A stretch of DNA of 64,000 nt from Thermodesulfobacteriota bacterium. GTDB lineage: Bacteria; Desulfobacterota; Desulfarculia; JACQYL01. The notes under the pieces were generated by a model that was not told the origin of the DNA, made no database searches, and saw nothing but the letters and a program-made list of their open reading frames with translations. Of the stretch, positions 15,227 through 21,433 are shown in pieces. The position numbers and the translations under genes are program-made. The stretch covers positions 1,760,001-1,824,000 of the forward strand of contig CAXXLZ010000002.1 in the NCBI GenBank assembly GCA_963675595.2, in the 5' to 3' direction. The first letter of the stretch is position 1. Every line of letters starts with the position of its first letter.

Positions 15227-17818
15227 TTGAGGATCGCTTTGCTCAGGACGTCGGACAGCTTTGTCATCCACGAACTTGCCAAAGCGGTCCGGAGCCGAGG
15301 GCACACTCTCAGGGAAATTCATTTCGACACCCGAAAAGAGGCCGGCCAGGAATGGGTATTATACGACTATCGCAAGTTTCTGGATGAGGTTTTCACTTTC
15401 AAACCCCAGCTGGTGCTGTCTCTGAACCACCGCGGGCTCAACGACCACGGCGGAAAGATATCACGACTCCTGTCCTTGCTGAAAATCCCCATGTTCTCAT
15501 GGCACCTGGATAGTCCTTTCTGGAATCTGGAACCCATCCTTCTTACGGACAGCCCCTACCTCACGGTATTCTGTTTCGATCGCTCATACACCGAGCCCTT
15601 AGCGCACCTCCTGAAAGAAGCCGATGTGGCTTATCTGCCCAACGCCACGGACCCCGACCTTTTCAAGCCTCTTCCGAAAAAGCATCGAGATCGCTTCGAC
15701 CTCACTTTTGTCGGAAGTCTATGTCTGAAGACCTTCCGCAAGTTGGCCGGAAAGACGCTGGGTGTTCCACGCGATCGATTTACGGAGGTGGAGTCCTTCC
15801 TCGATGAAAATCTGGAAGCCTCGTTCTCCCTGCCCGAGTTGGCCACCAAGGCCCGAGATCGGTTTCCCGACGCCCCGCAGGACCCGGACCAGGACGCCGT
15901 GTGCCGGCTGGCGGACGAATACGAAGCCTATCGATATCGGGCACGCGCCATCACCCAGTTGCGCGACCTCAGCCTCCGTGTTTACGGTTTCGACGACTGG
16001 CTCGAAATCGTCGACCCGGAACAATTTGGCGGATGGGCCGAATATTATTCCGATCTTCCCGGTATCTACGGTTCTTCCCGAATCAATCTCAATCTATCTC
16101 GCCCGCAAGTTCGTGCGGGTCTCAATCAGCGTTTCTTCGACGTTCCGGCCGCCGAAGGCTTTTTATTGACGGATTTCCGTGAAGGGCTTCTGGAAGTATT
16201 TCCGGAAGAAGGGGAGATCGCCGTCTTTCGGGGGGAGGAAGACCTGAAACGTCAGGTCGAATGGTTTCTGTCTCATCCCGAACACCGGACACGCATGGCC
16301 AAACGAGCCCGAGAGCGGGTACTCGAAGGCCACACGTACGCACACCGAATCGACGAAATGGAACGGCACTTCAAGACGTTGGGGCCCCTCCTCAAAGGAA
16401 GGGACTTCTCCTACCTCCTGCGGTTCTGGCGTGAGGACCGGGGATTCGCCGAATCCTGTCGTATGCTGGGCCAGTTCCTTTTTCACGCCGGTGACTTCCG
16501 AGGGGGCCGTTTTCTATACGAGCAACTCGATCGGATGGGAAAGGCCGACGGCGAGGTATGGCTGCGGCTCGGGGCCATCGCTTCGAGCGAGGGAGACGTT
16601 GAGACCAGCGAGGCCTACCTGTGCCGATGCTTCGACACGGATCCGGACAGCGCCGTAGCACACTCCGTGGCCGGCGTTAACGCCGAGAAGCTGGGACATT
16701 CCGCTGAAGCGCTGGCCCATTTCCGCCGATCCATCGACCTGGGCAACGCCGACCCCAATGTGCCGAATCGAGCCGCAGCCTTAAGAGAGAAACTGCAGCC
16801 GCCCATTGCCGTTGATCCTTCCCGGCCCGGTATCGCTTTTGCGCTGGATCAGGCAAACCTGCCGTTCGGCGGCGTTCGGGTAATCCTTGAATACGTTGAC
16901 CGCCTCGCCGAACGAGGGTACCGGGTCTTTCTCCTCACCCGCCGTCCCCAGTACTCGGACTGGTTTCCCCTGCGGGTGCCCGTCGTTCCCAAGGAGCATT
17001 GGGAACAAACGTTGAACGACGTCGAAGCCGTTGTTTTCAGCCAGCATGAGCTGTACAACCACATCCCCGCACGGCACGGGCTGAAGCGCATTTTCCTGGC
17101 TCAGCACTTCTTTTCCGACGCCGGGGACCAAACACGGGCGCACCGTACCTTTTCCGATCTGTCCGTCACGCTGGTTTCCGTCTCCCGTCATGTGCGGGAC
17201 GCCGTCGAAAGCGAGATGAACCGATCATCGTTGCTGATTCACAGCGGAGTCAACCGGGATCTGTTTCATCCCAGACCTGAACTTAAGCGTGTCGCCTCCG
17301 GACCGAAAATTCTTTTCTGCTATTCCGCCAATCCCCTCAAAGGAGCGGAGCACGGCATGGAGGTCATGAAGCGGATCAAGGAGGACCAGCCGAACGTTCA
17401 GCTCCGAATGTTCGGTTTCGGGCTGAGGCCCAAAGCGGAGTTCGACTTCGAATATTTCAGATTGCCGGAGCAGGAAGCGCTCGCCCGTTTGTACGCGGAT
17501 TCCGATGTATTTCTGTCCACGTCCCGCAGCGAAGGATTCGGCCTGCCTTGTTTGGAGGCCATGGCTTCGGGTTGCGCCGTGGTTTCCACGCGCAACGGCG
17601 GCAACGCCGATTTTTGCGTACACGGAGAAAACGCTCTTCTGTGCGACTACGGAGATACGGATGAGATGGCGCGTCTTGCCGCCGGGCTACTTTACGACGC
17701 GGACCTTCAAGCAAGACTCACCGAGCGCGGCCTTGAGACCGCCCTTCGATTCTCATGGGACCGGAGCGTGGACCGCATGGAAGAAGTGTGTACGTCCGCC
17801 CACCCCTCCGACGGTTGA
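15227..17818 (+). CDS. Multi-domain glycosyltransferase: CgeB-like GT + TPR + GT4
   Basis: SRINLN...NQRFFDV...FLLTD...HTYAHR (CgeB-like), central TPRs, C-terminal GGVRV and EGFGLPCLEAMASG (GT4). Confidence 0.88.
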   Translation: MRIALLRTSDSFVIHELAKAVRSRGHTLREIHFDTRKEAGQEWVLYDYRKFLDEVFTFKPQLVLSLNHRGLNDHGGKISRLLSLLKIPMFSWHLDSPFWNLEPILLTDSPYLTVFCFDRSYTEPLAHLLKEADVAYLPNATDPDLFKPLPKKHRDRFDLTFVGSLCLKTFRKLAGKTLGVPRDRFTEVESFLDENLEASFSLPELATKARDRFPDAPQDPDQDAVCRLADEYEAYRYRARAITQLRDLSLRVYGFDDWLEIVDPEQFGGWAEYYSDLPGIYGSSRINLNLSRPQVRAGLNQRFFDVPAAEGFLLTDFREGLLEVFPEEGEIAVFRGEEDLKRQVEWFLSHPEHRTRMAKRARERVLEGHTYAHRIDEMERHFKTLGPLLKGRDFSYLLRFWREDRGFAESCRMLGQFLFHAGDFRGGRFLYEQLDRMGKADGEVWLRLGAIASSEGDVETSEAYLCRCFDTDPDSAVAHSVAGVNAEKLGHSAEALAHFRRSIDLGNADPNVPNRAAALREKLQPPIAVDPSRPGIAFALDQANLPFGGVRVILEYVDRLAERGYRVFLLTRRPQYSDWFPLRVPVVPKEHWEQTLNDVEAVVFSQHELYNHIPARHGLKRIFLAQHFFSDAGDQTRAHRTFSDLSVTLVSVSRHVRDAVESEMNRSSLLIHSGVNRDLFHPRPELKRVASGPKILFCYSANPLKGAEHGMEVMKRIKEDQPNVQLRMFGFGLRPKAEFDFEYFRLPEQEALARLYADSDVFLSTSRSEGFGLPCLEAMASGCAVVSTRNGGNADFCVHGENALLCDYGDTDEMARLAAGLLYDADLQARLTERGLETALRFSWDRSVDRMEEVCTSAHPSDG

Positions 17819-17825
17819 TACCCTG

Positions 17826-17870
17826 CGATCTTCATTTGCCCGGTTTCGCATTCCGGAAGATCGATTTTTT
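17826..17870 (+). terminator. Possible intrinsic terminator after the glycosyltransferase
   Basis: CGATCTTC/GAAGATCG stem followed by a T run, but the loop is large. Confidence 0.35.
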
Positions 17871-18011
17871 GCGACCACAAAGCCGGCTTCGATTTGGAGA
17901 GCCTTACGTAGGCCGACCCGGAGGCTTCATAGCCTCCTTGGAAAGGGAGGCCGAAACCCTCCGGAGCGGTCTTACGGCCTCTGCAACAATCCGTTGAAAA
18001 AGGCCGTTTCG

Positions 18012-18134
18012 CAGGTTGGTGAAAGTCGAGACATGTCGAATGTGCCGATCCCGAGGACTCAAGGCGCACGTTGCGTACGTCCCGCCGACAAATGAGGAAG
18101 CGTAACGCCGCGGATCGCGTTTTTCACCAGCCTG
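18012..18134. repeat. MITE/REP-like non-coding element with terminal inverted repeats
   Basis: CAGGTTGGTGAAA (18012-18024) versus TTTCACCAGCCTG (18122-18134), 12/13 inverted match. A related GTTGAAAAAGG motif lies just upstream. Confidence 0.55.
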
Positions 18135-18214
18135 ATGATATGGCTGCACACGTCAATAGGGCGCAGAATTCTTCCGCCCCTTGTAACGTTGGGGTATGGC
18201 TACCATTTATGGAA

Positions 18215-18409
18215 CTTCAACCTGCGGACAGAGGCGGAACCTGCATAGCGACGGTGGATCATGCTGATATTCGCGGGTTGGTTACCGCCGGACTTGGTTC
18301 GTCGCGGAGCTGCCTCTTTCTAGAGACGAGGGTTCGGCAGATGCCAGATCTCCTATCAGGTCACGAGGATTCTCCTTACCGCGGTTGCGCCCCTGCTCAC
18401 AGGTTGAAG
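18215..18409 (-). ncRNA. Candidate bridge/seek RNA of the IS1111-type element
   Basis: A ~27-bp imperfect basal stem (18215-18241 with 18383-18409, outer 10 bp perfect) encloses segments matching the target site and the circle junction. Confidence 0.65.
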
Positions 18410-18475
18410 CCGGTGTTTTTCCCTTTTACAGTGCCGTCCTCCTTCCAAATCGAACGATATGGTGTTGATGTGAGG

Positions 18476-19582
18476 CTAAGCGGCAACGGGAACCTCTCTG
18501 GCGATCGCCCACAGAAAGGCGGCCATCTCCCTTGCAATGGCCGTGACGGCCACTTGCGACGGCTTACCCCGGGCCATCAGCCGGTGGTACCGGCCGCACA
18601 GACGCAGCTGGGCCTTCCAGCCGATCTTGCAGACCTCGGACGGCGCCTCCTCCCGCCGATCCCTCAGCCTGCGGCCCACTCGGGGCGGATAGCGATAGGT
18701 CCAGGCCCCCTGGATCAATACCCGGCGCGCATGTCCGTTGCCGGACTTGGTAATGCCTCCTTGTTTGCGCCGTCCTCCGCTGGAACTCTCCGAGGGGACC
18801 AAACCCAGATACGCCGTCAACTGCCCGGGCTCATCAAATCGCGTCATGTCGCCCACTTCGGCCACCACAGTGACGGCCACGATCAACGACACGCCTCGCA
18901 TCGATTGGAAGGCCTCCACGACCGGTTTCATAGGCCAGTGCTCCACCTGCTCGCCAATCTGCTCCACCAATCGCGCCACCCGGCGCTCGCACTCTTCAAT
19001 GGTGTCGATATACTCCTGAAAAACGATCTGCTGGGCCGGGTGTTCAAACGACTGGTCCGAAAGCCACCTCCGGTGGGCCCGGCTCCACTTCCGCGGCCCG
19101 CCGTACTTCCGACCGTGGCGCAGCAAAAAGGCGTTGAGCCGCTGTTTGGCCTTTCGCTCCGAGCTCTTGGCATCCTCCCGGGCCCTGGTCAAATCCCGTA
19201 TCGCCTCGTCCTCCACACGGGGAACATACACCCCCGTGAGTTCTCCAGCCCGATGAAGACGAGCCAGGGTGACCGCATCCCGTCGATCCGTCTTGATCCG
19301 ATCGCCGGCTCGTCGGGGCGTCAGCGAGGGCGCCACGACCGTGCAATGGATTCCCCGGGCATGCAGGTGCCGGCAAAGAACGTAGCCGCATGGGCCGGCT
19401 TCGTAGACCACCCGAAGCCGATCCTTCTTGTAGCCCAGCCGGCGAATCAATCGATCCACATCCGACGGCTCCCCGTTGATCTTGCCGTAAGATCGGACTT
19501 CTCCATCACGGGACCCTTCGGCCAGGGCAACGTCTATCGATTTCTGGTGAACATCCAATCCAACAAAGATAAAATCGGTCAT
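18476..19582 (-). CDS. IS110-family transposase/recombinase
   Basis: DEDD residues in GLDVH, YEAG and KTDRRDA; AYLGLVPSESSSGG serine loop; GITKSGN; AIAREM. AAGGAGG RBS before ATG 19582. Confidence 0.97.
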   Translation of the reverse strand: MTDFIFVGLDVHQKSIDVALAEGSRDGEVRSYGKINGEPSDVDRLIRRLGYKKDRLRVVYEAGPCGYVLCRHLHARGIHCTVVAPSLTPRRAGDRIKTDRRDAVTLARLHRAGELTGVYVPRVEDEAIRDLTRAREDAKSSERKAKQRLNAFLLRHGRKYGGPRKWSRAHRRWLSDQSFEHPAQQIVFQEYIDTIEECERRVARLVEQIGEQVEHWPMKPVVEAFQSMRGVSLIVAVTVVAEVGDMTRFDEPGQLTAYLGLVPSESSSGGRRKQGGITKSGNGHARRVLIQGAWTYRYPPRVGRRLRDRREEAPSEVCKIGWKAQLRLCGRYHRLMARGKPSQVAVTAIAREMAAFLWAIAREVPVAA

Positions 19583-19721
19583 GGCCTGCCTCCTTGGTGT
19601 TGGTTCTGTGGGCGTGCTGATTACTCGCACCATAACCCAACAACGCAGGAGATGGGCCTACTTTCCTGCACGTGCAGCCATTATGTCTAGCCTCGTCACG
19701 GCAAAGAAACCTTCACCAGCG

Positions 19722-20186
19722 CTACTTGGTTGCCGCCGCCGCTTCCCGACGATCCAGTCGGGAAAGCACACGGCCGGAGACTTCCATTGCCAGGTAAAGG
19801 ACCAGAAGCACCATGAAGACGCCGAAAAACCGCAAGACCAGCGTTCCTAGAATCCAGGTCCAGCGGTCGCCGGTGATGACCACCTTGACCGTTCCCGAAT
19901 CCCCTTCGATCAACCTGATGGAATGCCATGGCCGCGAACTCTGGTCCTCAATCAGTGTCTTTCCATTGCGCTCGCGGAATTTAACGTCTTGCTCGTTTTC
20001 CAAGACCTTCCGATAGAAATTCACGGCTTGGTCCATGCTCATTTCATAGGTGGCCGTCACACGATCTTCACTCCGAATCACGTCCTTCCCTCCTTCCATC
20101 ATTGGAACACCGAGGAAATCCTCTCCAAAGGACGCCTGTGAGCAAAGGAGCAGGGACAGCAAAACAAGAGACATGACTGTTTTCAT
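19722..20186 (-). CDS. Exported membrane-anchored protein, possible OadG/gamma-like subunit
   Basis: Signal peptide MKTVMSLVLLSLLLCSQASFG, ~90-aa soluble domain, C-terminal TM helix LRFFGVFMVLLVLY. Directly downstream of the beta subunit. Confidence 0.65.
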   Translation of the reverse strand: MKTVMSLVLLSLLLCSQASFGEDFLGVPMMEGGKDVIRSEDRVTATYEMSMDQAVNFYRKVLENEQDVKFRERNGKTLIEDQSSRPWHSIRLIEGDSGTVKVVITGDRWTWILGTLVLRFFGVFMVLLVLYLAMEVSGRVLSRLDRREAAAATK

Positions 20187-20278
20187 AGCGATATTCCCGT
20201 TATGTGTAACCTCGTCGTCATTGCATGTACGCATACGCAAGTCTTCGGATCCGACACTTTCGGAATCCGGGGAACCGA

Positions 20279-21433
20279 TTAATCGAACATGGCGATAAAC
20301 ATCCCCGCCGCCGCCGCTGAGCCGATGACTCCGGCCAAGTTCGGTCCCATTGCGTGCATCAGAAGGTGGTTCTTCCTGTCGTACTCGAGCCCGACGAGTT
20401 CCGAAACGCGAGCGGACATGGGGACCGCAGAAACTCCCGCCGACCCGATCAACGGATTGATCTTCTCCTTGAGAAACAGGTTCATGATCTTTACCGTCAA
20501 TATCCCGCCGGCGGTGCATACGGCGAAGTCCAGCAAACCGAGAGAAAAAATCAGCAAGGGTTTCGGGCTCAAGAACGTATGCGCGTTCATGGTGGCTCCC
20601 ACGGACAGTCCCAGAAAGATGGTGACGATGTTCATGAGTGCGCCCTGCGCCGTCTCCGTCAGTCTCCCAACAACCCCGCTCTCCTTCATCAGGTTGCCCA
20701 GCATGAACATCCCCATGAGAGGAATGACGGAGGGCACCAAGACCGCGATGATGCCGCAGGCCACCAGGGGATAGAGAATCTTCTCCCTGGTCGAGACCCT
20801 GCGGAGTTGCCTCATGCGGATCTTGCGCTCTTCGGGATTGGTCAGAAGCTTCATGATGGGCGGCTGAATCAGCGGCACCATGGCCATGTAGGAATAGGCG
20901 GCCAAGGCGTTGGCCCCAAGAAGCTGAGGCGCCAGGTGCTGGGTGAGATAGATGGTCGTGGGACCGTCGGCTCCGCCGATGATGCCCACGGAAGCAGCCT
21001 CTTTCAGGGTGAACCCTGCGAGGATGGTTCCGCTGAAGGTGATGAATACCCCCAGCTGCGCGCCGGCTCCCACGATGAGCGTTTTGGGATTTGCGATTAA
21101 AGGACCGAAGTCCGTCATGGCGCCCAATCCCAGAAAAATTACGCAGGGAATGATCTCCCACTCGAGACCGTAATGGTAGATCGCCCGGATGAGTTCGGGC
21201 TGCCCTCCGTGGGCATATCCCATCAGGGGAACCAGAGGGAAATTCACCACAAAGATGCCGAAGCCGATGGGCAACAGCAGTAGGGGTTCAAAGTTCTTGG
21301 CAATGGCCAGATAGATGAAAAATCCGGCGATCACCCACATAACGACGGGCTGCCAACTCAGGTTCCATAACCCGGTGGTGTAGAAGATGCCCCACAACAT
21401 GTCGACAATGTCGTTCCATTCCATGGTCTTCAT
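20279..21433 (-). CDS. oadB: Na+-translocating decarboxylase beta subunit
   Basis: [52 protein letters not shown]. Confidence 0.95.

What the first reader, a model, noticed from the sequence alone, without database searches (positions are those of the whole stretch)
18215..18409. Candidate bridge/seek RNA whose guides match the reconstructed target and donor junctions
Seen: removing the IS gives the empty site CAGCCTGAT|AGCCTCG. The non-coding end (sense with the recombinase) contains CCTGATAG (18360-18353), an 8/8 match across that junction, and ATATCAG (18270-18264), a 7/7 match across the circle junction CCATATC|AGAC. Both lie inside a long basal stem. Known: IS110/IS1111 recombinases use such RNAs to specify target and donor. 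Inference: a programmable recombinase variant guided to the terminus of a host repeat. The matches are short, so either alone could be chance, and I could not identify a convincing second-strand target guide.
Basis: partly seen in the sequence, partly recalled or inferred. Interest (0 to 1): 0.75.

Follow-up and report, generated by a model that had tools for sequence, protein, structure and literature searches.

The report
Bridge/seek RNA of an IS1111-like element
The non-coding tail of this insertion sequence encodes a guide RNA of the known bridge/seek type that reads both the insertion site and the element's own joined ends, so it is a well-supported but ordinary member of a known system.

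Summary
Window 18136-19688 (minus strand) is a 1552-bp IS110-family element, one of five intact copies in this genome. It has 10-bp subterminal inverted repeats, a 368-aa DEDD/Ser recombinase and a 340-nt downstream non-coding region.

That region folds into a covariation-supported RNA (about 18408-18216): a long basal stem carrying two arms, each with an internal loop.

[quoted passage not shown] In 31 related elements this segment matches the cognate flank at 175 of 217 positions, against 75.5 +/- 7.3 for shuffled pairings. An independent set gives 84 of 133 against 50.2 +/- 5.5.
- **Target loop, 3' side.** It reads only 2-3 left-flank bases.
- **Donor loop.** AUAUCAG (18270-18264) equals the right end plus core and changes together with that end in four sequence states across the family.
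- **Copy E.** It carries a guide substitution (A to U) that matches its changed site (T to A).

Four of the five copies sit at termini of an abundant host repeat.

Verdict: a genuine bridge/seek RNA and a new member of a known kind. No expression or binding data were available.

The parts
18136..19688 (-). Insertion sequence, 1552 bp when the A shared by both junctions is counted once. It is one of 5 intact copies in the genome.
   Evidence: BLAST against the genome and flank alignment. Contigs of other runs break at 18128-18138 and 19690.
18476..19582 (-). Recombinase gene, 368 aa from the ATG that follows an AAGGAGG motif. The mechanical ORF list gives 385 aa from an upstream ATG at 19633.
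   Evidence: Pfam DEDD_Tnp_IS110 and Transposase_20. NCBIfam NF033542 at 276 bits over its full length. Aligned D, E, D..D and SG positions with ISCro4. Intact in all 5 copies.
19672..19681 (-). Left subterminal inverted repeat, ATGGCTGCAC.
   Evidence: Inverted-repeat search.
18140..18149 (-). Right subterminal inverted repeat, GTGCAGCCAT, followed by the terminal ATCA (18139-18136).
18216..18408 (-). Bridge/seek RNA. The covariance-model hit spans 18211-18413. The true 5' and 3' ends are unknown.
   Evidence: RNAalifold on 32 elements, pair counts, cmsearch at 175.5 bits.
18383..18408 (-). Basal stem, 5' strand. It pairs with 18216-18241.
   Evidence: All 22 pairs show changes on both sides somewhere in the family.
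18216..18241 (-). Basal stem, 3' strand.
18353..18361 (-). Target loop, 5' side: GACCUGAUA(G). [quoted passage not shown]
   Evidence: Cognate against shuffled flanks: 175/217 against 75.5 +/- 7.3, 0 of 20000 shuffles as high. Independent set: 84/133 against 50.2 +/- 5.5. Copy E has a compensating change at 18356.
18320..18327 (-). Target loop, 3' side: GUCUCUAG. It is identical to the top strand of the left flank plus A(G), so it pairs with the bottom strand. It is the short LTG equivalent.
   Evidence: 85/168 against 58.0 +/- 4.7, 0 of 20000. Only LF-1, -2 and -3 are above chance (27, 22 and 15 of 28).
18306..18375 (-). Target-binding arm. Stems GGAG/CUCC and CCUC/GAGG close the internal loop, with an apical hairpin at about 18351-18329.
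   Evidence: helices 3-5.
18264..18270 (-). Donor loop, 3' side: AUAUCAG. It equals the right-end ATATC plus core AG and is the LDG equivalent.
   Evidence: Changes with the right end in four states across the family.
18291..18293 (-). Candidate right-donor guide, GUC, complementary to GAC at the left end. Weak.
   Evidence: Inference from the alignments. Not tested statistically.
18248..18305 (-). Donor-binding arm. Stem GCGACG/CGUCGC and apical hairpin 18288-18273.
   Evidence: helices 6-7.
18151..18156 (-). TTGACG, the -35 half of a junction promoter formed on the circle. Conserved as TTGAC in the family.
   Evidence: Alignment. Spacing of 17 nt to CATAAT counted. Function inferred.
19680..19685 (-). 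CATAAT, the -10 half of the putative junction promoter.
   Evidence: Read directly from the sequence. Inferred by analogy with Pjunc of IS110/IS1111 elements (passages of PMC12288879).
17990..18135 (-). Host repeat unit whose terminus (N)CAGGCTG abuts the element.
   Evidence: 23 hits of 120 nt or more and 44 shorter ones at E<=1e-3. Uninterrupted ends read yT(A/G)|NCAGGCYGTTGAAAAACG.
19689..19697 (-). Left target flank, GACGAGGCT. It is not conserved between copies except for the terminal yT.

Best explanation
The 3' non-coding region of this IS1111-style element is transcribed in the sense of the recombinase gene. It folds into a two-armed RNA that binds the DEDD/Ser recombinase.

The internal loop of the first arm recognises the insertion site. 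[quoted passage not shown] The internal loop of the second arm recognises the joined ends of the excised circle. [quoted passage not shown] A short GUC may pair with the left end.

Holding target and donor together, the recombinase exchanges strands at the shared A. This inserts the element next to (N)CAGGC, which here is mostly the terminus of an abundant host repeat.

Shown here: anatomy, fold covariation, and guide-target and guide-donor covariation. Inferred from the family: transcription, processing, protein binding and the chemistry.
For: **Protein.** Pfam DEDD_Tnp_IS110 and Transposase_20. NCBIfam 'IS110 family RNA-guided transposase' at 276 bits against a cut-off of 140. D, E, D..D and SG align with ISCro4.

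**Fold.** 44 pairs, of which 35 show compensatory change. 91.4% of cells are paired, against 76.1% for shuffles (0 of 500 as high) and 39-49% when partners are slid. GU/UG cells number 74 against 36 AC/CA, which favours this strand.

**Target guide.**
- Per-position matches to right-flank bases +1 to +6 are 30, 29, 29, 29, 27 and 24 of 31, and +7 is 7 of 31.
- The total is 175/217 against 75.5 +/- 7.3 (0 of 20000 shuffles).
- In 19 elements not used to build the model, the total is 84/133 against 50.2 +/- 5.5 (0 of 20000).

**Second guide.** 85/168 against 58.0 +/- 4.7.

**Donor guide and right end.** Four paired states were found: AUAUCAG with CATATCAG, AUGAGAG with CATGAGAG (13 of 14 rows exact), AUACCAG with CATACCAG, and AUAAGAG with CATAAGAG in ISEc45.

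**Within the genome.** Copy E changed 18356 from A to U, and its site has A where copies A-C have T.

**Spread of the RNA.** The covariance model finds the RNA just downstream of the gene in 36 of 38 further loci, and in ISSso6 and ISEc45.

**Published layout.** The layout matches the published IS1111 pattern: non-coding region downstream, and the top-strand match 5' of the bottom-strand match (PMC11187229 abstract and sections 6, 8, 9, 10, 13; PMC11208160 passages).
Against: There is no evidence of transcription, processing or protein binding for this element. No RNA run was listed.

Copy D's own guide pairs only 5/8 with its site.

Several relatives match their flank poorly:
- 2 of 7: L044, L045, L046, L052, L070.
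- 1 of 7: L076.
- 4 of 7: L004, L011, L021, L023, L034, L054, L067, L087.

One lineage of 7 loci has the donor guide AUCAGAG. For the four of them whose right end was read (L043, L048, L069; L078 is a related element), that end reads CATGAGAG, one mismatch; the right ends of L040, L049, L062 and L077 were not identified. L058 has AUCUCAG against CATATCAG.

Only 7 of 18 AUAUCAG rows had an exact second copy within 330 nt downstream. The window itself counts as a miss because its N is T.

The right-donor guide is barely discernible.

The 8-9-nt guide match occurs about 130-150 times in the genome. Pairing alone therefore does not explain why 4 of 5 copies lie at repeat ends.

Rfam has no matching family.
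Confidence: 0.9

Rival explanations
1. Only the first arm works as a guide, as a 'short seekRNA' that reads the target and the element's flanks. On this view AUAUCAG in the second arm is conserved for another reason, such as protein binding or fold, and is not a donor guide.
For: Siddiquee et al. report that an 82-nt RNA of ISEc11 sufficed for movement, and that reprogramming required changing the donor flanks rather than the ends (PMC11187229 section 10). AUAUCAG is invariant within the closest clade, so conservation there cannot be told apart from pairing. The right-donor guide is weak.
Against: Across clades the segment changes together with the right end in four states, with 13 of 14 exact for AUGAGAG. 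It occupies the 3' side of an internal loop exactly as the left-flank guide does in the first arm, and both end in AG.
Confidence: 0.07
2. AUAUCAG is the second-strand target guide rather than a donor guide, because it equals the target top strand TATCAG in copies A-C.
For: Target and donor share TATCAG in this copy. Copy C's site TATCAGC matches 7 nt.
Against: It stays AUAUCAG in relatives whose targets are unrelated. It follows the right end instead. The family-wide left-flank signal lies in the first arm.
Confidence: 0.02
3. The conserved fold is only a 3'-UTR, terminator or DNA-level binding site for the recombinase, and the short matches in this window are chance.
For: Within the window alone the 8-mer arises in 139 of 5000 shuffles and the 7-mer in 418 of 5000. 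No expression data exist.
Against: Position-by-position covariation with the flanks in two separate sets. No terminator-like site was found in 18136-18475. The GU excess is strand-specific.
Confidence: 0.01

Closest known systems
seekRNA of IS1111-family elements (ISEc11, ISPa11, ISKpn4; Siddiquee et al. 2024, PMC11187229)
   Same: - Non-coding region downstream of the recombinase gene.
- Subterminal inverted repeats.
- A top-strand-complementary segment 5' of a bottom-strand-complementary one, with the two overlapping at the insertion point.
- Repeat or REP-like targets (ISPa11).
- Natural retargeting by guide change (ISEc11 and ISXne4, compared with copy E here).
   Different: - The recombinase is 368 aa, against the stated 330-350 aa.
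- Identity to IS4321 is only 26% over 60% of the length, and the covariance model does not hit IS4321.
- The left-flank guide reads only 2-3 bases.
- No experiments exist for this element.
IS621 bridge RNA (Durrant et al. 2024, PMC11208160; Hiraizumi et al. 2024, PMC11208158)
   Same: Two internal loops read target and donor on both strands. Each guide includes the crossover bases. There is a DEDD plus Ser active site and a junction promoter on the circle.
   Different: - Here the RNA is in the right end, not the left.
- Strand order within each loop is reversed: the 5' side reads the top strand.
- Protein similarity is weak (E 6e-7).
- In this element the base after the shared A differs between target (T or A) and donor (G), whereas IS621 has an identical CT core in both.
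ISSso6 and ISEc45 (names as annotated in plasmid records)
   Same: The recombinases are 49% and 48% identical. The same RNA is found by the covariance model (E 2e-20 partial, and 3e-8). ISSso6 has the same CGGUAUCCAACCCGCGAAUAUCAG block. In ISEc45 the donor guide AUAAGAG equals its right end.
   Different: The hosts are enterobacterial plasmids and the targets differ. I found no paper describing their RNA: the search returned listings only. Supplementary Table 5 of Durrant et al. may list them, but supplements were closed.
REP-targeting IS110-family elements (ISPpu9, ISPa11, IS621)
   Same: Insertion at a fixed position of an abundant intergenic host repeat. Recombination at an AG shared by element and target in ISPpu9 (PMC12288879 passages).
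   Different: ISPpu9 belongs to the IS110 group, with its RNA upstream and no hybrid promoter. The repeat here is a composite unit of about 150 nt, not a 35-bp REP.

Membership tests
IS110-family DEDD/Ser RNA-guided recombinase | RuvC-like DEDD domain plus C-terminal Tnp domain | tested here: met
   PF01548 (1.3e-16) and PF02371 (3.5e-22). NF033542 equivalog at 276 bits against a cut-off of 140, over profile positions 1-340 of 343.
IS110-family DEDD/Ser RNA-guided recombinase | Catalytic D, E, D, D and the Ser-Gly loop | tested here: met
   The alignment to ISCro4 (9t56) places GLDV on GIDV, YEAG on MEAT, KTDRRDA on KTDAVDA, and SSSGG on YESGS. The roles of these residues are taken from IS621 (PMC11208158 passages). 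The correspondence of ISCro4 residues to IS621 numbering was not checked.
IS1111 group | Subterminal inverted repeats of 7-17 bp | tested here: met
   ATGGCTGCAC and GTGCAGCCAT, 10 bp, set 7 and 4 nt in from the ends. Range taken from PMC11208160.
IS1111 group | Longer non-coding region downstream of the gene | tested here: met
   340 nt downstream (18136-18475) against 106 nt upstream (19583-19688).
IS1111 group | GL-P----S(t)G motif in the C-terminal domain | tested here: met
   The protein reads YLGLVPSESSSGG (query line). Motif taken from PMC11187229 section 6.
IS1111 group | Recombinase of 330-350 aa that clusters with IS1111 and IS4321 | tested here: inconclusive
   368 aa. tblastn identity to IS4321 is 26% over 60% of the length. 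No tree with ISfinder references could be built.
Bridge/seek RNA | Structured RNA with internal loops whose two sides match opposite strands of the target | tested here: met
Bridge/seek RNA | A loop matching the element's joined ends (donor) | tested here: met
   The left-donor side changes with the right end in four states. The right-donor side is only weakly visible.
Bridge/seek RNA | The RNA is made, co-purifies with the recombinase and is needed for movement | not testable with these tools
   No RNA run was listed.
Any Rfam family | Match to a curated covariance model | tested here: not met
   Only two chance-level hits (E 2.5 and 5.7), to unrelated families, in 17500-20300.

The most novel reading that the evidence does not exclude
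In this element the crossover tolerates, or is built for, a target whose base after the shared A differs from the donor's G.

- The 5' target guide reads that base freely: A opposite T in copies A-C, U opposite A in copy E, and U opposite A in four relatives.
- The 3' guides keep G.
- In all 4 informative copies the left junction keeps the donor's G and the right junction keeps the target's base.

That would mean strand exchange is confined to a single shared A, a register unlike the identical 2-nt core of IS621.

In addition, two guide alleles coexist in one cell. The rarer E allele fits copy D's site better than D's own allele does, which suggests guidance in trans or later gene conversion of the guide patch.
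Probability: 0.3. Interest if true: 0.45.

Novelty: new member of a known kind. Interest (0 to 1): 0.3.

Why it matters
It shows that sequence reading alone picked out a real guide RNA. It also adds a well-resolved natural example to the bridge/seek RNA class:

- a family of at least 70 elements across several phyla, with a clear map of which RNA positions read which DNA positions;
- a very short left-flank guide;
- a donor guide that changes in step with the element's right end in four sequence states;
- two guide alleles in one genome that differ at exactly the positions that read the target.

For people engineering these recombinases, the apparent freedom of the base after the shared A could be a useful lead. 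For genome annotation, the covariance model built here marks the RNA in relatives, including ISSso6 and ISEc45.

Tried and rejected
**Searches that gave nothing useful**
- Rfam scan of 17500-20300 at E<=10: two chance hits only.
- The genome search for the non-coding region in 40 relatives: found in none of those searched. No extra insertion sites of this exact element were therefore available.
- The look-up of sequencing runs: no RNA holder listed.
- Read laying on four runs, all contigs: both guide alleles are present (depth about 12-15 against 5) and contigs break at the element's ends. There was nothing on expression, circles or empty sites. These runs may be the source sample and are not independent.
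- Promoter and terminator scan: no terminator-like site in the non-coding region and no promoter on the minus strand.
- IS4321 locus L088: no hit with the covariance model at E<=0.01.
- Loci L037 and L053: no hit either.
- Papers on ISSso6, ISEc45 and ISAzs32: listings only, none about their RNA.

**Readings considered and dropped**
- AUAUCAG as the second target guide.
- A chance match.
- A terminator or 3'-UTR element.

**Points that stayed weak**
- The left-flank guide is poor for this window's own copies: 3-4 Watson-Crick pairs of 7 for A, B, C and E.
- I could not settle the exact register of strand exchange.
- My first donor string was built from wrong coordinates and gave a meaningless 0. 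One search replaced it.

**Rows dropped**
- Of 80 loci plus the window, 35 passed the end-pattern filter. That filter demanded AT[AC][TC]CA at the right end, so conservation of the donor end within that set is partly by selection.
- The flank tests used 31 and 28 elements after removing duplicates and cut flanks.
- RNAalifold was given 32 of the 35. L013, L017 and L026 were left out as near-duplicates.
- The independent test used 19 of the 42 covariance-model rows, namely those with an exact second copy of the donor 7-mer and at least 7 nt of flank.

**Supplements.** These were closed. Durrant et al.'s supplementary tables of predicted bridge RNAs may already include close relatives.

Full report
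**What is there.** The finding lies in the non-coding tail of an insertion sequence on the minus strand. The only long ORF (18476-19633 mechanically; 18476-19582 from the ATG behind an AAGGAGG motif, 368 aa) carries the two Pfam domains of IS110-family recombinases. It matches NCBIfam's 'IS110 family RNA-guided transposase' over its full length (276 bits). Its similarity to the solved ISCro4 and IS621 proteins is weak, but the D, E, D..D and Ser-Gly positions align (residue roles from passages of PMC11208158).

The genome holds five copies, 97.5-100% identical over the aligned stretches (3 contigs, 6.79 Mb; copies). All five have an intact 368-aa gene and are 1552 bp long.

**Boundaries and target.** Aligning the five copies in recombinase sense fixes the ends. 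The left end is ...yT|AGACATAATGG and the right end is ...CCATATCA|N-CAG(G/C)C(T/C)G, with N = T, T, T, G, A. One A is common to both junctions.

Ten-bp subterminal inverted repeats lie 7 and 4 nt inside the ends. TTGACG near the right end and CATAAT at the left end would sit 17 nt apart on the circle. This is the usual junction promoter of the family (inferred; passages of PMC12288879).

The right flank of copies A, B and E is the terminus of an abundant host repeat. That repeat gives 23 hits of 120 nt or more and 44 shorter ones at E<=1e-3. Its uninterrupted ends read yT(A/G)|NCAGGCYGTTGAAAAACG. Copy D sits at the opposite terminus of such a unit. Copy C shares only about 8 nt with the repeat.

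**The observation.** CCTGATAG (18360-18353) and ATATCAG (18270-18264) are present as stated, and both lie inside a fold closed by a long stem. In shuffles of the region, an 8-nt match across the target junction arises in 139 of 5000, a 7-nt match across the donor junction in 418 of 5000, and both in 23 of 5000. That is suggestive but not decisive.

**Relatives.** A scan of one genome per species returned 80 loci encoding recombinases 52-66% identical. Thirty-four of them, plus the window, have recognisable ends of the same design: AGACATAATGG... at the left and ...CCATATCA at the right, mostly followed by G. Their non-coding regions align with strongly conserved blocks.

RNAalifold on 32 of them gives three parts:
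- a basal stem of 22 pairs;
- a first arm, in which GGAG..CCUC pairs with GAGG..CUCC around an internal loop and an apical hairpin;
- a second arm, in which GCGACG pairs with CGUCGC around an internal loop and the hairpin CGGUAACCAACCCG.

On this MAFFT alignment 91.4% of cells pair. Shuffles give 76.1% (0 of 500 as high) and slid partners give 39-49%. Thirty-five of 44 pairs show changes on both sides. GU/UG cells outnumber AC/CA by 74 to 36, as expected if this strand is the one that folds.

A covariance model built from the alignment finds the RNA immediately downstream of the gene in 36 of 38 further loci, with E from 1e-17 to 1e-60. It also finds it in the plasmid-borne ISSso6 (2e-20, partial) and ISEc45 (3e-8), but not in IS4321. 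In the window it hits only 18211-18413.

**Guides.** The variable segment on the 5' side of the first loop ends in (N')UA. It is the reverse complement of T-A-N plus the right flank.

Cognate matches at right-flank positions +1 to +6 are 30, 29, 29, 29, 27 and 24 of 31, and position +7 falls to 7 of 31. The total is 175 of 217, against 75.5 +/- 7.3 when flanks are shuffled among elements (0 of 20000). In 19 elements found only by the model, the total is 84 of 133 against 50.2 +/- 5.5 (0 of 20000).

Several elements fit their flank poorly:
- 2 of 7: L044, L045, L046, L052, L070.
- 1 of 7: L076.
- 4 of 7: L004, L011, L021, L023, L034, L054, L067, L087.

The 3' side of the same loop ends in CUAG. 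It repeats the top strand of the left flank, matching 27, 22 and 15 of 28 at positions -1, -2 and -3, then falling to chance. The total is 85 of 168 against 58.0 +/- 4.7 (0 of 20000). It is short, which explains why the left flanks of the five copies share only yT.

**Donor.** AUAUCAG sits on the 3' side of the second loop and equals the right end ATATC plus AG. It does not vary with the target, but it follows the right end across clades:
- AUGAGAG with ...CATGAGAG, 13 of 14 rows exact;
- AUACCAG with ...CATACCAG (L044, L045);
- AUAAGAG with ...CATAAGAG (ISEc45).

Against this, one lineage of 7 loci has AUCAGAG. In the members whose right end was read (L043, L048, L069) that end is CATGAGAG, one mismatch; the right ends of the other four were not identified. 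L058 has AUCUCAG against CATATCAG. Only 7 of 18 AUAUCAG rows had an exact second copy within 330 nt. A right-donor guide is barely visible: GUC opposite GAC, read and not tested.

**Within the genome.** Copy E differs from the others at 24 sites, all concentrated in 18323-18645. That patch covers the first arm and the sequence upstream of it, but not the second arm.

Within the RNA, E has six differences. Two fall on guide positions: 18356 (A to U) and 18323 (C to G). The first compensates for E's site, TTAACAGG against CTATCAGG, giving 7 Watson-Crick pairs plus 1 wobble of 8. The A-type guide would give 6 plus 1 at that site. Contigs from other runs carry both alleles.

Copy D's site fits its own A-type guides worse than E-type guides. 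With A-type guides it pairs 5/8 and 6/7. With E-type guides it pairs 5 plus 1 wobble of 8, and 7/7. D also shares three substitutions with E outside the patch. D may therefore have been placed by E-type RNA or later converted, but this is only a suggestion.

**What pairing does not explain.** CTATCAGG occurs 130 times in the genome and TATCAGGC 151 times. Pairing alone therefore does not account for 4 of 5 copies lying at repeat termini. Purging of insertions in genes, or a preference for the repeat's structure, could account for it. Neither was tested.

Among 51 repeat ends caught by a pattern, N is A in 20, G in 16, C in 8 and T in 7. The E-type U would therefore reach more ends than the A-type A.

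**An open point.** In most relatives target and donor share AG at the crossover. Here, and in L016, L055, L057 and L065, the target has A-T or A-A. The 5' guide matches that base, while the 3' guides keep G. In the 4 informative copies of this genome, the left junction has the donor's G and the right junction has the target's base. That leaves only the A in common. IS621 instead uses an identical CT in both partners, with the top strand cut just after it (PMC11208158 passages). The relatives were selected with a pattern that required AGAC at the left end, so they do not add unbiased support.

**Comparison and verdict.** The layout is the one published for IS1111-type elements: RNA in the right end, and a top-strand match 5' of a bottom-strand match (PMC11187229 abstract and sections 6, 8, 9, 10, 13). 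Durrant et al. predicted bridge RNAs in the right end of 93% of IS1111 elements (PMC11208160 passages).

Membership of the IS1111 group is met for inverted repeats, position of the non-coding region and the GL-P----SG motif. It is inconclusive for protein length (368 aa against 330-350 aa) and for relatedness to IS4321 (26%).

This is a real bridge/seek RNA and a new member of a known kind. Nothing about its expression or biochemistry could be tested here.

Noticed in passing
window 17990-18135, and about 23 full-length plus 44 partial copies in G000 (e.g. C2:590117-590263): A composite host repeat of about 150 nt, built from three copies of the motif CAG(G/C)CYGNTGAAAAA in alternating orientation. 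Uninterrupted outer ends are usually preceded by TA or TG. Its nature (REP/BIME-like or MITE) was not determined.
   Followed up: partly
G000 C2:4494743-4496335 (copy E, locus L085), corresponding to window 18323-18645: All 24 E-specific substitutions fall in one patch covering the 3' end of the gene, the spacer and the target-binding arm. The donor arm and the rest of the element are nearly identical to the other copies. This looks like a swapped guide module. Other substitutions are shared in mosaic patterns (A with D; B with C; D with E), which suggests gene conversion between copies.
   Followed up: partly
G000 C2:4106349-4107921 (copy D, locus L084): Copy D sits at a site that pairs only 5/8 with its own 5' guide. 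The E-type 3' guide matches its left flank 7/7, and the E-type U can wobble with its G.
   Followed up: partly
loci L063, L064, L034, L036, L027, L054, L039, L067 (mostly Alphaproteobacteria): Relatives with the right end CATGAGAG carry 5' guides ending in CUGUUA or CUGCUA. They sit next to CAGGCTGCTGAAAA-like flanks, much like this genome's repeat end, although the hosts are from other phyla.
   Followed up: no
window 15227-17818 (+): An 863-aa ORF combining glycosyltransferase family 1 domains, TPR repeats and DUF3880, just upstream of the host repeat.
   Followed up: no
window 17910-17972: A GC-rich inverted repeat between the glycosyltransferase gene and the host repeat. It gave only a chance-level Miscellaneous Rfam hit (mir-879, E 2.5).
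   Followed up: no
locus L086 (Shigella sonnei plasmid, ISSso6), about 2200 onward: The covariance-model hit to the ISSso6 RNA stops at model position 174 and the sequence beyond is unrelated. This copy's right end seems to be missing or interrupted.
   Followed up: no
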